Assembly: GCA_038087875.1 (NCBI GenBank)
Contig: CM075994.1
Location: forward strand, 1,614,001 to 1,678,000
Source of the DNA: Malacoraja senta
Lineage: Eukaryota
DNA length: 64,000 nt
Direction of reading: 5' to 3'
Position 1 is the stretch's first letter. Each line of letters begins with the position of its first letter. This document shows, piece by piece, positions 53,132 through 57,900 of the stretch. The notes below the pieces were generated by a model that saw only the letters and a program-made list of their open reading frames with translations, ran no database searches and had not been told where the DNA came from. Position numbers and translations under genes: made by a program.

Positions 53132-53335
53132 TGTGGTGTATGCCCCTTTAAGAGATATCATACACCTATTGTAATACCGGTAGCCACAAAAGGGGGCTTG
53201 CTTAGTATAAAAGCCCTGGTGGTAGTGTGACCTCTCTTTCTTCTTTTCCCCCTCTGAAACCATGATTAAAGGCACGTTGGTTTTACCTGATGGTTTCTCG
53301 ATGGTTATTTAAGTATCTGACTCCAGTACTTAACA
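53132..53335 (+). mobile_element. Solo LTR (204 bp)
   Basis: TG...CA ends, 5-bp TSD GTTCT (53127-31 and 53336-40), TATAAAA at 53206 and ATTAAA at 53265. The paralogous segment at ~57664 has a single GTTCT (empty site). Confidence 0.85.
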
Positions 53336-54801
53336 GTTCTTATCTCTCTGCTGTGAAACGTGGACTTAGGGTCCAATAAATGAAAAGACACTGGACGGGT
53401 TCATGGATAGAAAAGATCTACAGGGATATGGGCCAAACGTGGGCAGGTGGGATTTGCATAGATGGGGCATCTTGGTCGGCGTTGGCAAGTTGGGCCAGAG
53501 GGCCCGTTTCTGTGCTATATGACGCGATGACGCTATAACTTGGGCAAAAGCATATTTTTGGAGCACGGATCTTTAGAACTATAACCGGGATACGTCTAGT
53601 CCCAAAGCCTCTGCTGTATCCAGTGCACTCAGACACTTCCAATAACACAGGGATGAATCAAATTGACTGAAGATTGGCTTCTGTGATAGTCCCTGTCTCT
53701 GGTCTGCCCCTCTCAGTCTCAGCGTAACGAGATCGGTTCATAATCCAGCACTGTCACCACATCCTCACCACATCCCCATGCCCCACCACCTCGCTGCTGG
53801 TTTAAGAGACAATGTACTCACAATGAACACTATTTACAGGAGGAGATTTTCAGAAATCAAGTACACTGAACTGTTGCCAACTCAAAGTTATTTTTCTGCT
53901 AAAAACGTTATATATCCCAATCTTTGAATAATGCGGGCAGAAAACAAAACGGGAATGCAGAAGAAACTATTTTCAGTCAATAGGCACAGCGGCAGAGTTG
54001 CTGCCTTACAGCGCCAGAGACTCGAGTTCAATCCTGACTACGGCTGCTGTTTGCATGGAGTTTGAACATTCTCCCTGTGATCGGTGGGTTTTCTCCGGGT
54101 GCTCCGGTTTCCTCCCACATCCGAAAGACGGGCAGATTTACAGTGCCCTCCATAAAGTTTGGGTCAAAGCCCCATCATTTATTTATTTGCCTCTGAACTC
54201 CACAATTTGAGATTTGTAATAGAAAAAAAATCACATGTGGTTAAAGTGCACATTGTCAGATTTTAATAAAGGCCATTTTTATACATTTTGGTTTCACCAT
54301 GTAGAAATTACAGCTGTAGAAATACATAGTCCCCACATTTCAGGGCACCATAATGTTTGGGACACATGACTTCACAGGTGTTTGTAATTGCTCAGGTGTG
54401 TTTAATTGCCTCCTTAATGCAGGTATAACAGAGCTCCCAGCACCTAGTCTTTCCTCCAGTCTTTCCATCACCTTTGGAAACTTTTATTGCTGTTTATCAA
54501 CACGAAGACCAATGTTGTGCCAATGAAAGTCAAAGGAGCCATTATGAGACTGAGAAACAAGAATAAAACTATTAGAGACATCGGCCAAACATTAGGCTTA
54601 CCAAAATCAACTGTTTGGAACATCATTAAGAAGAAAGAGAGCACTGGTGAGCTTACTAATCGCAAAGGGACTGGAAGGCCAAGGAAGACCACAGCTGATG
54701 ACAGAAGAATTCTCTCTATAATAAAGAAAAATCCCCAAACACCTGTCCGACAGATCAGAAACACTCTTCAGGAGTCAGGTGTGGATTTGTCAATGACCAC
54801 T

Positions 54802-54935
54802 TCTTCTTTCGTGTGGCGTGCACAGCCTAAAGTTGTTGGACAACTTGTTCTATTTGATCTTCCGTTTGTGCACGTCGAGTTGATTGCATTAGTCGAAACA
54901 GGGTGGACCACGTGAAGGTTGCAATCTTCCACCCC
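54802..54935 (-). mobile_element. ~134-bp non-autonomous non-LTR element (ribozyme head, GAA-repeat tail), possibly Vingi/Ingi-related
   Basis: Flanked by the direct repeat (c)aatgaccac(t) at 54791-54801 and 54935-54945. The 3' end is ...GCACGCCACACGAAAGAAGAA. Removing the insert and one repeat restores the Tc1 reading frame (DLSMTT-VRRRLHE). Confidence 0.85.
54882..54935 (-). ncRNA. Minimal HDV-like (delta-like) self-cleaving ribozyme motif, 54 nt
   Basis: Minus strand reads GGGGUGG AA GAUUGCA ACC UUCACGU GGU CCACCCU G UUUCGA CUAA UGCAAUC. P1 is 7 bp with a G1-U wobble, P2 is 7 bp, P3 is 3 bp, L3 is UUCACGU (fits UYCHCGY), P4 is vestigial (U-UUCG-A), and J4/2 is CUAA with the putative catalytic C at 54892. 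Folded by hand. Confidence 0.85.
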
Positions 54936-57900
54936 AATGACCACTGTCCGCAGAAGACTTCATGAACAGAAATACAGTGGCTACACTGCAAGATGCAAAC
55001 CACTGGTTAGCCGCAAAAATAGGATGGCCGGGTTACAGTTTGCCAAGAAGTATTTAAAAGGGCAACCACATTTCTGGAGAAAGGTCTTGTGGACAGATGA
55101 GACAAAGATTAACATATATATGAGTGATGGCAAGAGCAAAGTTTGGAGGAGAGAAGGAACTGCCCAAGATCCAAAGCATACCACCTCATTTGTGAAACAC
55201 GGTGGTGGGGGTGTTATGGCCTGGGCATGTATGGCTGCTGAAGGTACTGGCTCACTTATCTTCATTGATGATACAACTGCTGATGGTAGTAGCATAATGA
55301 ATTCTGAAGTGTATAAACACATCCTAGATGGCCGGCGGTTCATTCTACAGCAAGACAATGATCCCAAATATACTGCTAAAGCAACAAAGGAGTTTTTCAA
55401 AGCTAAAAAATGGTCCATTCTGTAGTGGCCAAGTCAATCACCCGATCCGAGCACAATTGAGCATGCCTTTTATATGCTGAAGGGAAAACTGAGGGTGACT
55501 AACCCCCAAAACAAGCATAAGCTAAATATGGCTGCAATAGAGGCCTGGCAGAGCATCACCAGAGAAGACACCCAGCCACTGGTGATGTCCATGAATTACA
55601 GACCAAGCAGTCATTGCATGCAAAGGATATGCAACAAAATACTAAATATGACGACTTTCATTTACATGACATTGTTGTGTCCTAAACATTATGGTGCCCT
55701 GAAATGGGGGGACTATGTATAAACACTGCTGTAATTTCTACATGGTGAAATCAAAATGTATTAAAATGGCCTTTATTAAAATCTGACAATGTGCACTTTA
55801 ACCACATGTGATTTATCTCAAATCGTGGAGTACAGAGACAAATAAATTAATGATGGGTCGTTATTTATGGAGGGCACTCTATTGGTTAATTAGCTTTGGT
55901 AAGTTGTTAAAATGTCCCTAATGTGTAAGATAGTGCTAATGTTCGGGGTGATCATCGCTCGGTGACCTGAAGGGCCTATTTCAGCGCTGTATCTCTAAAC
56001 TGTAGAGGAGAACGGAGAACAGTACAGCACAGCATTCTATGTCTGATTTGTCTCAAGACATGGCATGTAAGTAGTGCTAGTGCAAAGTGACAGTCTTATA
56101 GGTGTGTAGATCCAAATTATATAAAGTTTTAATGCAAATGTCCAAAAGTTGCTTCCTTGCATGCATCCATTTTGTATATTTACCATCCATGGCAAAAAGT
56201 GGATTACCAAATTGTGTGCTATCCAATCCGCTGACTGGACATCATGCAACAAAAAAGCTTTTCACTGTTCCTGTACAGTGTACACGTGACAATAAACTAA
56301 ACTACAATGAGGTGTTCTGAGTAAGTTATCGCAGTGATAAAAGGTGGTACGGATAAGCTGAGCATGACAGCTCTCACTCACCATGCTCGTTGAAAGCAGA
56401 AACGTCAAGACTGCAATTCTTTTTGCCTTGTGACAACTGAGAGTCTTTTACCCAAGGAAGAGGAATCAAAAACCAGACGACATAGGTTTAAGGTATGAGG
56501 GGCTAAATTTAATAGGAACCTGAGGGGCAATTTTTTCCACACAAAGGATGGTGGGTTTACTAAATGACCTAGACACAAGATGCTGGAGCAACTAAGTGGG
56601 TCAGGCAGCGTCTCTGGAGAAGAGGAATAGGTGACATTTTGGATCTGAAACCTTCTTAAGATTCATTCTGAGCCTAAGGAAGGGTTCCAACTCAAAATGT
56701 CACCTATTCTTTTTCTCCAGAAATGCTGCCTGATCCGCAGAGATACTCCAGCCATTTGTGTCTATCCGGTATAAACCAGCACCTACAGTTTCTTCCAGAG
56801 GAAGTAATTGAGGCAGGCACAAAAGCATTGAAAAGCACTTTGACAGGGACAAGCATAGGAAAGGTTCAGAGGGATATGGGCTAAACGCAGACAGGTGGGA
56901 CTTCTTGGTCAGCAGTAGCAAGTTGGGCCAAAGGGCCTGTTTCTGTGCTGTATAAGTCTGTGACAGGCATATTTCTGGAGCACAGATCTTCAGTGCTACA
57001 AGTAGGACACATTTGGTCCCAAAGTTCTATGTTATCCCACTTTCTCATCCACTCCCTACACACTAGGGACATTTACAGAGGTCAATTAACCTACAAACCC
57101 GCACATCTTTAGGATGTAGAAGGAAACCTGAGCACCCAGAAAAAACCCACGTGGTCACAGGGAGAACATGCAAACTCCTCACAGATAGCACCCGAGATCA
57201 GGATTGAACCCGGGTCTCTTGTGCTGTGAGGCAGCAACTCTACCAGCTGCGCCACTGGGCTGCCACAGGCCACGTTTTCAATGGTAGTTCAGGATGTGCG
57301 CTAAACTGCTGGTGTTACCAGAGTCACCCAGCACCAGAGAAATTAACAAATTTAAAAAAAACGTAATCTAACAGTAAAGGCCCTCAGGAGCACAGCATTC
57401 ATTATACTACTTAGAGCATAGCATGTCAGAGAAAATGTTGTATGTTTAAGGTCATGGTTCTGTTTAATCACATCTGATTAAATTTTAGGAATTGTGTCCG
57501 AGCATAGTTTTGCTGGCATTGAAAGAATGCTGAACAGGAAGTCTGTGGAGAGAAACAATTCAGGCGACCACTGGCATCACACAAGCCTCTGCCAGAAATC
57601 TGTCCATGTCCAAGATTGGAAAAAAATGACAACAGGGTGTGTTTTTATTCAGCGATTGACAATGTTCTGTTGTGTAACTTGGACTTATGTTCCAATAAAT
57701 GAATTTAAAAGACACTTGGCACAAACAATGCTGGCTTATACTAAAGATGGACACAAAGTGCTGGAGTAACTCAGCGGGTCAGGCAGCATCTTTGGAGAAA
57801 AAGGATGGGTGACGTTTTGGGTCGTGACCCTTCTTCAGACTGAAGAAGTCTAAAGAGTCCCGATCTGAAACGTCACCTATCCTTTTTCTCCAAAAAGACT

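What the first reader, a model, noticed from the sequence alone, without database searches (positions are those of the whole stretch)
54791..54945. A ~134-bp mobile element whose 5' end is a complete minimal HDV-like ribozyme
Seen in sequence: the insert that breaks the Tc1 ORF is bounded by a 9-11 bp TSD. On the minus strand it begins GGGGUGG-AA-GAUUGCA-ACC-UUCACGU-GGU-CCACCCU-G-UUUCGA-CUAA-UGCAAUC, continues for ~70 nt and ends in a GAAAGAAGAA tail. Every part of the HDV double pseudoknot is present in the correct order: 7-bp P1 with G1-U wobble, perfect 7-bp P2, 3-bp P3, L3 UUCACGU, a G available for P1.1, and C-U-A-A J4/2. P4 is reduced to a UUCG stub. The predicted cleavage site (5' of G at 54935) coincides with the element/TSD boundary. 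Established: HDV-like ribozymes process the 5' ends of R2, L1Tc/Ingi and other non-LTR elements, and P4-less minimal forms can be active. Inference: this is a promoter-less SINE-like parasite that cuts itself out of read-through transcripts and is mobilised by a LINE recognising its GAA tail. I cannot tell whether this family has already been described in cartilaginous fish.
Basis: partly seen in the sequence, partly recalled or inferred. Interest (0 to 1): 0.92.

Follow-up and report, generated by a model that had tools for sequence, protein, structure and literature searches.

The report
Short retroposon headed by minimal HDV-like ribozyme
A 135-base jumping element, present about a thousand times in this genome, starts with a very small self-cutting RNA motif of the hepatitis-delta type, and RNA molecules in living tissue begin exactly at the predicted cut.

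Summary
Window 54801-54935 (minus strand) is a 135-nt retroposon with a 10-nt target-site duplication, inserted in a Tc1-like transposase gene. RNA reads from Tc1 copies without the insert show the empty site.

The own genome holds at least 1,400 candidate copies, and 1,023 carry a perfect first 35 nt. Of 18 copies chosen by their 3' halves, 17 start at G1.

Its first 54 nt fit the HDV-like double pseudoknot. P4 is cut down to a U(UUCG)A stub. The three best Rfam matches are HDV-family models, all below their thresholds.

An RTE-like LINE with the same (GAA)n tail starts with a homologous core. Between the two elements P1 is exchanged at 6 of 7 pairs, and P1.1 and one P2 pair also change on both sides.

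In four RNA runs, template-switch-oligo sequence is joined directly to G1. RNA 5' ends therefore lie at the predicted cleavage site.

Catalysis itself is untested, and no intact partner LINE was seen. I file it as a new variant of a known kind, alongside R2 SIDEs, NARTc and bipartite RTEs.

The parts
54801..54935 (-). The whole 135-nt retroposon copy. Position i of the element is coordinate 54936-i.
54882..54935 (-). 54-nt minimal HDV-like ribozyme candidate (element positions 1-54).
   Evidence: descriptor; RF00622 at 25.1 bits, RF02682 at 17.5, RF00094 at 16.9, all in register; covariation.
54929..54935 (-). P1 5' strand GGGGUGG. The predicted cleavage is 5' of G1 (54935).
   Evidence: It pairs with 54900-54906. 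The LINE module has CCUCUCC/GGAGAGG at the same place. Template-switch-oligo junctions lie at 54935.
54900..54906 (-). P1 3' strand CCACCCU. Position 32 (54904) is A in this copy and G in most copies.
   Evidence: 22 of 30 loci have G32. T>C at 54904 in about 80% of reads. U5 pairs with either letter.
54920..54926 (-). P2 5' strand GAUUGCA.
   Evidence: It forms 7 perfect pairs with 54882-54888.
54882..54888 (-). P2 3' strand UGCAAUC.
   Evidence: The LINE has GCAGUC opposite GACUGC, so U12-A52 becomes C12-G.
54907..54919 (-). P3 (ACC/GGU) enclosing L3 UUCACGU. C22 (54914) is the P1.1 partner of G37.
   Evidence: L3 is identical to the consensus L3 of Rfam's CPEB3 ribozyme model, as printed.
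54899..54899 (-). G37 (J1/4), which pairs with C22 to form P1.1.
   Evidence: The pair is C-G in the short element and G-C in 20 of 21 distinct LINE rows.
54893..54898 (-). P4 reduced to U(UUCG)A.
   Evidence: Read directly. The LINE has a 96-nt closed domain at this place.
54889..54892 (-). J4/2 CUAA. The candidate catalytic C44 is at 54892.
   Evidence: It aligns to the GCUAA/CGAA of the HDV-family models.
54811..54881 (-). Body with no detected relative. It is predicted to form a long-range 8-bp stem (54867-54874 with 54817-54824) around a 7-bp hairpin (54840-54846 with 54830-54836).
   Evidence: -16.2 kcal/mol, z -1.6, weak. No similarity to the LINE loci.
54801..54810 (-). GAAAGAAGAA tail. 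Other copies extend it by 0-4 more GAA units.
54936..54945 (-). Target-site duplication, 5' copy (AGTGGTCATT).
54792..54801 (-). Target-site duplication, 3' copy. Its first A is shared with the tail.
54166..55862 (+). Host Tc1-like DNA transposon whose transposase frame is broken by the insert.
   Evidence: Inverted repeats, frames, and PF01498 split across the insert.

Best explanation
This is one copy of a young, high-copy, non-autonomous non-LTR retroposon. Its head is not a polymerase III gene remnant but a 54-nt, P4-less HDV-like self-cleaving ribozyme.

Proposed mechanism:
1. Copies lying in the sense direction inside host or transposon transcripts are transcribed passively (inferred).
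2. The ribozyme cuts 5' of G1. This frees an RNA whose first base is the first base of the element. The RNA 5' ends at G1 are shown; that the ribozyme makes them is inferred.
3. An RTE-clade LINE of the same genome, which also ends in (GAA)n and starts with a homologous ribozyme-like module, copies this RNA into new sites by target-primed reverse transcription starting on the GAA tail. This leaves 9-14-bp duplications. The tail and the duplications are shown; the identity of the mobiliser is inferred.
For: Family
- The own genome gives 1,411 candidates for the whole element. All 40 scored are 99-100% identical, and 39 cover positions 1-135.
- There are 1,023 exact copies of the first 35 nt and 0 in the reversed control.
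- Flanks differ between loci. Exact duplications of 9-14 bp are found in 24 of 32 loci.

Precise 5' end
- I took 18 copies on contig C1 chosen only by a perfect 3' half.
- Eleven have the perfect 5' 35-mer in place.
- Six start at G1 with point changes.
- One is truncated at position 16.

Fold
- All helices and joining strands of the double pseudoknot are present in order.
- In a 74-nt search of 4,227 Rfam families, the three best hits are CPEB3_ribozyme (25.1 bits, E 2.9e-5), HDV-F-prausnitzii (17.5) and HDV_ribozyme (16.9). All are on the minus strand and in register with G1.

Comparative support
- Of 30 loci fetched with the LINE 5' region, 26 begin, after unrelated flanks, with CCTCTCC-TG-GACTGCA-ACC-TTGACGT-GGA-GGAGAGG-C.
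- Positions 10-28 match the short element at 17 of 19 letters and at the same offset.
- On the 37-column alignment, 6 of 7 P1 pairs and the P1.1 pair differ on both sides yet stay paired. Of all cells, 86.7% are paired, against 73.7% in shuffles and 46-64% when the partners are slid.
- In 23 of those 26 LINE copies, a closed 86-101-nt domain (96 nt in 17) is followed by C/T/G-R-A-A and GCAGTC, which pairs with GACTGC.

RNA
- In two single-cell runs, 633 and 542 reads carry a 30-letter extension beyond 54935 (agreement 0.81 and 0.74).
- That extension is the exact reverse complement of the Drop-seq template-switch oligo printed in PMC5927767.
- The sense-strand depth just inside the element is 742 and 702.
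- Two bulk oligo-dT runs from another study show the same junction with an oligo differing by three letters (229 and 232 reads, agreement 0.44-0.48).
- The reads hold 7 G: 3 from the oligo and 4 from the element. Invasion at the element's own GGGG would give 4 G or fewer.

Partner
- The LINE's endonuclease has 985 relatives, many named 'craniofacial development protein 2-like'.
- All 9 LINE 3' ends examined run from the TAA stop straight into a GAA-rich tail.
- A second RTE-like family in the genome ends in GTAA-type repeats instead.
Against: - No cleavage was measured. RNA ends at G1 would also arise from transcription starting there.
- All Rfam scores are below their gathering thresholds (25.1 against 35, 17.5 against 44, 16.9 against 50). 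In the first 3-kb scan only RF02682 appeared, at E 4.9.
- The LINE module gets no HDV-family hit at all, even in a 166-nt search. It also departs from the usual pattern, with C1-G36 in place of the G-U wobble and an A-A mismatch in P3.
- The covariation is in effect one event between two lineages, so the cell counts overstate it.
- By BLAST alone the 19-nt similarity has E 0.94 in 164 kb. Its weight rests on the identical offset from the 5' terminus.
- The read-laying table of molecule starts and ends lists none. The reads with the oligo are counted there as loose ends.
- Reads that cross G1 into genomic flanks exist, for example 281 reads of one copy in run X23. The bulk libraries look unstranded, so uncleaved sense RNA cannot be told from antisense RNA.
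- The LINE copies differ from each other by about 10%. The longest open frame among 150 scored matches is 440 aa. No working source of reverse transcriptase for the recent burst was therefore found.
- The 3' body of the short element matches no LINE.
- The nested minimum-energy fold is not better than shuffles (z -0.39). That method cannot score pseudoknots.
Confidence: 0.8

Rival explanations
1. The element is an ordinary SINE-like RNA with its own promoter, for polymerase III or II. Transcription starts at G1, and the HDV-like pairing is a structured 5' domain with no catalytic role.
For: RNA 5' ends at G1 and sharp genomic 5' ends are what a fixed transcription start gives too. Template switching does not tell a hydroxyl end from a capped or triphosphate end.
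Against: - ARAGORN finds no tRNA-like head.
- No small-RNA family matches; the only credible Rfam hits are ribozymes.
- I saw no A and B boxes by eye, and I ran no formal scan for them.
- A DNA promoter should be conserved in sequence. Here P1 is exchanged on both strands between the two elements while pairing is kept.
- The homologous module heads a 3.2-kb protein-coding LINE.
Confidence: 0.08
2. The fold is a real relic of an HDV-like ribozyme but is no longer active without P4. The 5' end is made by another nuclease, or by the reverse transcriptase stopping at the structure.
For: P4 is reduced to one pair and a tetraloop, and scores lie below the Rfam thresholds. The majority variant weakens P1 by a U-G pair.
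Against: - A reverse transcriptase blocked by structure would stop 3' of the helices, not at the first base of P1.
- The core letters are kept: L3, the CCCUG that runs into G37, and C-N-A-A before P2.
- The first 35 nt are kept perfectly in 1,023 copies.
- P4-less forms are reported active. I saw that paper (Riccitelli 2014) only as a reference entry, and the claim is otherwise recalled.
Confidence: 0.08
3. The resemblance to an HDV-like ribozyme is chance within a repeat.
For: The descriptor was written after the hit. A 1.9-Gb genome could hold some chance matches: no hit in about 38 Mb of shuffled sequence only bounds the rate.
Against: The motif sits exactly at the 5' terminus of the element. 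A second element has the same architecture with different helix sequences. RNA ends map to the predicted site.
Confidence: 0.02

Closest known systems
R2 SIDEs and R2/R1 hybrid SIDEs of Drosophila (Eickbush and Eickbush 2012, PMC3414825; abstract and outline read)
   Same: They are short non-autonomous elements made of a 5' HDV-like ribozyme that sets the 5' end, plus a 3' end used by a LINE's reverse transcriptase. The hybrid SIDEs show that the ribozyme head can be joined to a foreign 3' end.
   Different: SIDEs are rare, sit in rRNA genes, depend on 28S co-transcription and keep a full-size ribozyme. This family is dispersed, has about 1,000-1,400 copies, lives in a vertebrate-type genome with Tc1 and RTE elements, and has a P4-less ribozyme. 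Its body is not taken from the LINE.
HDV-like ribozymes at the 5' ends of RTE, Baggins, R2 and L1Tc LINEs (Ruminski et al. 2011, not held; known to me through passages of PMC6765202 and PMC5786205)
   Same: The RTE-like LINE found here starts with such a module, and the short element carries a homologous core. The reviews describe these elements as promoter-less and released from co-transcripts.
   Different: The LINE module here is not recognised by any Rfam model and has C1-G36 at the cleavage site. The short element is non-coding.
Bipartite non-autonomous RTEs such as MAR4, RTESINE2 and WALLSI3 (Kojima 2018, PMC5786205; passages read)
   Same: They are short RTE-dependent elements that keep the LINE's exact 5' end. 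Kojima suggested that a 5' ribozyme may be the reason.
   Different: Those are internal-deletion products with both UTRs of their LINE. Here only 19 nt of the ribozyme core and the GAA tail are shared. P1 is replaced, P4 is deleted, and the body is unrelated.
NARTc/L1Tc of Trypanosoma cruzi (PMC3185411, PMC3383444; search-listing abstracts only)
   Same: A truncated non-autonomous partner shares the LINE's 5' HDV-like ribozyme.
   Different: There the same 77 nt also act as an internal promoter, the tails are poly(A), and the host is a protist.
Mammalian CPEB3 ribozyme (Rfam RF00622)
   Same: It is the best-scoring model. L3 UUCACGU is identical, the CCCUGU after P1 is identical, and the P1.1 layout is the same.
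   Different: CPEB3 is a single-copy intronic ribozyme with a normal P4. The score here is 25.1 bits, below the 35-bit threshold, so this is not a member by Rfam's rule.
Minimal P4-less HDV-like ribozymes from the human microbiome (Riccitelli et al. 2014; seen only as a reference entry; content recalled)
   Same: They are natural HDV-like ribozymes with P4 reduced to a short linker.
   Different: Those come from microbial or metagenomic sequence and not, as far as I recall, from a eukaryotic retroposon.

Membership tests
HDV-like self-cleaving ribozymes | Nested double pseudoknot with P1, P2, P3, P1.1 and P4 in the canonical order (PMC4908430 passage) | tested here: met
   P1 has 7 bp, P2 7 bp, P3 3 bp and P1.1 one C-G pair, all in order. 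P4 is only U(UUCG)A. P1, P1.1 and one P2 pair covary with the LINE module.
HDV-like self-cleaving ribozymes | The cleavage site lies at the first nucleotide of P1 and leaves the ribozyme as the 5' end of the product | tested here: met
   Genomic copies start at G1 in 17 of 18. Template-switch-oligo junctions lie at G1 in 4 RNA runs from 2 studies. That cleavage causes these ends is inferred.
HDV-like self-cleaving ribozymes | Catalytic cytosine in J4/2, directly before the P2 3' strand | tested here: met
   C44 (54892) sits in CUAA and aligns to the model's GCUAA/CGAA. This is met at sequence level only.
HDV-like self-cleaving ribozymes | G-U wobble closing P1 at the cleavage site (recalled as typical of the family) | tested here: met
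   G1-U36 is present in the short element. The LINE module has C1-G36 instead.
HDV-like self-cleaving ribozymes | Score at or above an Rfam gathering threshold | tested here: not met
   RF00622 scores 25.1 against 35, RF02682 17.5 against 44 and RF00094 16.9 against 50. The missing P4 costs score.
HDV-like self-cleaving ribozymes | Divalent-ion-dependent self-scission that is lost on mutating the catalytic C | not testable with these tools
   This needs a bench assay.
Non-autonomous non-LTR retroposon with a ribozyme head (SIDE / bipartite type) | No coding capacity, target-site duplications, a LINE-type tail and many dispersed copies | tested here: met
   The element is 135 nt, has 9-14-bp duplications and variable (GAA)n tails, and occurs in at least 1,023 copies.
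Non-autonomous non-LTR retroposon with a ribozyme head (SIDE / bipartite type) | [quoted passage not shown] | tested here: not met
   Only positions 10-28 and the GAA tail are shared with the RTE-like LINE. No LINE shares the last 26 nt or the P1 of the short element.
Non-autonomous non-LTR retroposon with a ribozyme head (SIDE / bipartite type) | An active autonomous partner in the same genome | tested here: inconclusive
   An RTE-like family with GAA tails exists with 2,118 candidates. Among the 150 scored, the longest open frame is 440 aa, and copies differ by about 10%.
Classical SINE (polymerase III head) | A head derived from tRNA, 7SL or 5S with an internal promoter | tested here: not met
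   ARAGORN finds none and no such Rfam hit appears.

The most novel reading that the evidence does not exclude
A natural 54-nt, P4-less HDV-like ribozyme works in vertebrate cells as the head of a retroposon that is still amplifying. It takes the place that a polymerase III promoter has in ordinary SINEs.

The head is a portable module. Compared with the LINE version, its P1 helix was exchanged wholesale and its P4 was deleted, and it was joined to an unrelated body.

If so, about a thousand sense-oriented copies are potential self-cutting sites within host transcripts.
Probability: 0.65. Interest if true: 0.7.

Novelty: new variant of a known kind. Interest (0 to 1): 0.6.

Why it matters
Ribozyme-headed LINEs and a few rare derivatives are known, so the principle is not new. 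This case adds three things.

- It is a very small natural HDV-like ribozyme in an animal genome. Comparative evidence and RNA-end evidence for it were obtained without any bench work.
- It shows that such a head can carry a short element to SINE-like copy numbers, with about 1% divergence between copies.
- It gives a clear case of modular change in the ribozyme: P1 swapped, P1.1 inverted and P4 deleted.

If the ribozyme is active, every sense-oriented copy in an intron or UTR could cut its host transcript. That is testable with the RNA data of this organism. The 54-mer would also be a compact self-cleaving tag that is active in vertebrate cells.

Tried and rejected
- **Searches for a LINE sharing exact parts of the short element.** I used patterns with 'not' letters behind the shared part. 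Behind the ribozyme I got 1 hit, an old diverged copy. In front of the last 26 nt I got 1 hit, a copy with a 6-nt deletion. For the same P1 with a different P4 I got 15 hits, each different and mostly deletion variants. I rejected the idea that the element is a simple internal deletion of a LINE that still exists here.
- **5' 60 nt as a DNA query.** It found nothing. The tool skips very common words, so this is not informative.
- **Window and first 30 loci.** They hold no partial relatives.
- **Second RTE-like family** (41-42% identical to the first). It ends in GTAA-type repeats and is broken into frames of 376/294 and 342/232 aa. I rejected it as the partner on the tail.
- **Joint alignment.** MAFFT placed the 3' part of the short element inside the LINE's P4. 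I therefore counted P2 by script and gave only the first 37 columns to the count of structure pairs.
- **LINE duplications.** My crude script found them in only 3 of 9 truncated copies, at 10, 10 and 12 bp.
- **Sequencing-run index.** It lists no holder on record as RNA. The raw-read RNA runs were found by species label.
- **Earlier findings of this scan.** There is nothing on this genome or sequence, and the two word hits are unrelated.
- **Literature.** Searches found no paper describing this family or any HDV-like ribozyme in sharks, skates or teleost short elements. Repbase and Dfam could not be consulted, so an existing entry is possible.


Full report
**1. What is at the site**

On the minus strand a 135-nt insert runs from G 54935 to A 54801.
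- It is flanked by AGTGGTCATT at 54936-54945 and at 54792-54801.
- It interrupts the transposase frame of a Tc1-like element on the plus strand. The inverted repeats are at 54228-54366 and 55676-55814. The frames stop and resume at the insert. Pfam PF01498 is split across it.
- RNA reads from Tc1 copies without the insert join 54790 to 54935, skipping 144 nt with 11 ambiguous letters. The counts are 364, 354, 397 and 441 reads in four runs. This is an independent picture of the empty site.

**2. It is a family**

- The own genome (1.94 Gb) gives 1,411 candidates. All 40 scored are 99-100% identical, and 39 cover positions 1-135.
- The 3' 75 nt alone give 1,400 candidates, so there is no large excess of 3' ends.
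- The first 35 nt, with R at position 32, occur exactly 1,023 times. The reversed control gives 0.
- The 30 loci fetched have unrelated flanks, with two exceptions. L002 is a 100% identical inverted duplicate of 3,135 nt around the window's own copy. L005 and L006 are 99% identical over 3.1 kb.
- Exact duplications of 9-14 bp (median 11) abut G1 in 24 of 32 loci. Six have imperfect duplications and two could not be scored.
- Tails vary from GAAAGAAGA to six more GAA units.
- Position 32 is G in 22 of 30 loci and A in 8, the window among them. Of the first 100 rows, 17 have A.
- Older copies exist. L031 has about 10% changes and small deletions.

**3. 5' ends**

To avoid choosing copies by their 5' part, I took the 18 copies that lie on C1 below 199.75 Mb. 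They were selected only by a perfect 3' half.
- Eleven have the perfect 35-mer at the expected place. One of these has a 13-nt internal deletion.
- I fetched the other seven. Six start at G1 with point changes, and one is truncated at position 16.
- In total, 17 of 18 start at G1, and none carries extra 5' bases.

**4. The fold**

Positions 1-54 read as follows.

| Part | Letters | Positions |
|---|---|---|
| P1 | GGGGUGG / CCACCCU | 1-7 / 30-36 (G1-U36) |
| J1/2 | AA | 8-9 |
| P2 | GAUUGCA / UGCAAUC | 10-16 / 48-54 |
| P3 | ACC / GGU | 17-19 / 27-29 |
| L3 | UUCACGU | 20-26 |
| P1.1 | C22-G37 | 22 / 37 |
| P4 | U(UUCG)A | 38-43 |
| J4/2 | CUAA, with C44 | 44-47 |

- My descriptor finds this one site in the window and none in 300 shuffles. 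I wrote it after seeing the hit, so it is partly circular.
- In a 3-kb scan Rfam gave only RF02682, at 17.5 bits and E 4.9.
- In a 74-nt scan with laxer filters, the three best of 4,227 families are RF00622 CPEB3 (25.1 bits, E 2.9e-5), RF02682 (17.5) and RF00094 (16.9). All are in register and all are below threshold.
- The printed CPEB3 consensus shares L3 and the CCCUGU after P1.
- The nested minimum-energy fold is unremarkable (z -0.39). That is expected for a pseudoknot.
- ARAGORN finds no tRNA.

**5. A related LINE**

- Just upstream of the copy in L015 lies the 3' end of a LINE that ends ...GGGCTTAA(GAA)5.
- Its C-terminal 142 aa have 2,118 candidates in the genome. The best of the 150 scored are 80-89% identical. 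The longest open frame is 440 aa.
- All nine 3' ends examined pass from the TAA stop into GAA-rich repeats.
- The endonuclease part has 985 relatives. Many are named 'craniofacial development protein 2-like' and carry PF14529/PF03372. From recall, that label is given to RTE/BovB-type endonucleases.
- Other features are the length of about 3.2 kb, the single frame and the near-absent 3' UTR. From recall, these are also RTE traits.
- The 5' region has 62 candidates. Homology among copies begins sharply.
- Of the 30 loci, 26 start after unrelated flanks with CCTCTCC TG GACTGCA ACC TTGACGT GGA GGAGAGG C.

**6. Comparison of the two heads**

- Positions 10-28 agree at 17 of 19 letters at the same offset. 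This is the only similarity in 164 kb of LINE loci. BLAST alone gives it E 0.94, so its weight rests on the register.
- On the ungapped 37-column alignment of 3 short-element and 26 LINE rows, the count of structure pairs gives the following.
  - P1: 6 of 7 pairs change on both sides, and 94% of cells are paired.
  - P1.1: C-G in the short element, G-C in the LINE.
  - P3: the A17-U29 pair exists only in the short element.
  - Overall: 86.7% of cells paired, against 73.7% in shuffles (0 of 500 reach the observed value) and 46-64% when partners are slid.
- This is essentially one exchange between two lineages, not many independent events.
- Downstream, 23 of the 26 LINE copies have a domain of 86-101 nt (96 nt in 17). 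In each of the five whose fold I printed, its two ends pair with each other.
- That domain is followed by CGAA (13 copies), CAAA (5), TGAA (4) or GGAA (1), and then by GCAGTC, which pairs with GACTGC.
- P2 thus shows U12-A in the short element against C12-G in the LINE.
- The LINE therefore has the same architecture with a long P4. No Rfam model detects it, and its C1-G36 pair and A-A mismatch are atypical.

**7. RNA**

Four raw-read RNA runs under the same species label were laid on 54700-55040. They come from two studies.
- In single-cell runs X21 and X22, 633 and 542 reads carry a loose end directly beyond 54935. Its 30-letter consensus has agreement 0.81 and 0.74.
- That consensus is the reverse complement of the Drop-seq template-switch oligo quoted in the Methods of PMC5927767.
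- Its median length is 31 letters, which is the whole oligo.
- The reads lie mainly on the minus strand. Sense depth inside the element is 742 and 702 in the bin 54916-54927, against 266 and 248 antisense.
- Roughly three quarters or more of the sense reads that reach the 5' end stop there with the oligo. This is a rough ratio from binned depths.
- Bulk oligo-dT runs X23 and X24 show the same junction, with a consensus differing at three letters (229 and 232 reads, agreement 0.44-0.48, mixed with genomic flanks). I recall that consensus as the SMART-type oligo.
- The reads hold seven G: three from the oligo and four from the element. This argues against oligo invasion at the element's GGGG.
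- RNA molecules therefore begin at G1.
- The tool's own table of starts and ends lists none, because these reads are counted as loose ends. Only 24 of 706 loose-end rows were shown.
- Reads that cross G1 into genomic flanks also occur, for example 281 reads of one copy in X23.
- Loose poly-T before 54807 (217 and 188 reads) shows oligo-dT priming on the GAA tail, or polyadenylation. I cannot tell which.

**8. Reading**

The simplest account is a ribozyme-headed, LINE-dependent retroposon.
- Shown: the family; its sharp ends; the fold and its covariation with a LINE module; RNA ends at G1; a GAA-tailed RTE-like LINE.
- Inferred: catalysis; passive transcription; the identity of the mobiliser.
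- The element is not a plain deletion product of the LINE.
- A second RTE-like family with GTAA-type tails shows that tail type distinguishes LINE families here. This makes the shared GAA tail meaningful.

**9. Known or new**

- Reviews state that RTE and Baggins LINEs carry HDV-like ribozymes, lack promoters and are freed from co-transcripts. They also state that some non-autonomous elements use such ribozymes (PMC6765202 passages).
- Kojima lists bipartite non-autonomous RTEs and links them to 5' ribozymes (PMC5786205 passages).
- R2 SIDEs are the worked example (PMC3414825 abstract).
- New here are the P4-less natural form in an animal retroposon, the copy number and youth of the family, the exchanged P1, and the RNA-end evidence.
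- Searches found no description of this family. Repbase and Dfam were not available.
- The element's sampled words are held in full by runs under seven organism labels from 11 studies. I did not lay those runs.

Noticed in passing
window 53301-56435 and L002 (G000:C18:1555709-1558843): The 3,135 nt around the element are 100% identical, in inverted orientation, to a stretch about 110 kb away on the same contig. This is a recent inverted segmental duplication or an assembly duplicate. L005 and L006 are likewise 99% identical over 3.1 kb, about 46 kb apart.
   Followed up: partly
window 54166-55862: This is a Tc1-like DNA transposon with 139-nt inverted repeats that are 94% complementary. The family is transcribed on the plus strand in all four RNA runs, and most expressed copies lack the insert.
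   Followed up: partly
window 54861 (loose ends): A second expressed subfamily of the short element has an 8-nt deletion and several changes just after the ribozyme. It shows in 204-337 reads per run at agreement 0.80-0.85. The ribozyme's 3' end is unchanged.
   Followed up: no
window 54936 and 54807 (loose ends): In the single-cell runs, 154 and 153 reads continue beyond 54936 into A-rich sequence (agreement 0.38-0.45). Another 217 and 188 reads show poly-T before 54807. The second group fits oligo-dT priming on the GAA tail. The first group is unexplained.
   Followed up: no
L075 (G000:C6153:174210-178278), L076 (G000:C1:16058244-16062312): This is a second RTE-like LINE family, 41-42% identical in the C-terminal region. 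It ends in GTAA/TAAG-type repeats instead of GAA, and its frames are broken (376/294 aa and 342/232 aa).
   Followed up: partly
L015 800-1270: The GAA-tailed LINE copy is itself interrupted by a fragment of another LINE on the opposite strand. That fragment has a C-terminal region of CR1/L2-like appearance. The naming is from recall.
   Followed up: no
L060 1639-1700 (minus strand of the locus): There is a SECIS_1 match of 28 bits (threshold 35, E 0.084) over the start of the LINE's reading frame. It is probably chance.
   Followed up: no
window 56570-56764: A near-perfect hairpin-like inverted repeat has 96-nt arms that are 77% complementary, with 3 nt between them.
   Followed up: no
The nearest named relatives of the LINE endonuclease come from teleost fishes (67-85% identity over part of the query). 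After them come schistosomes and molluscs. The host taxon of the window was not determined.
   Followed up: no
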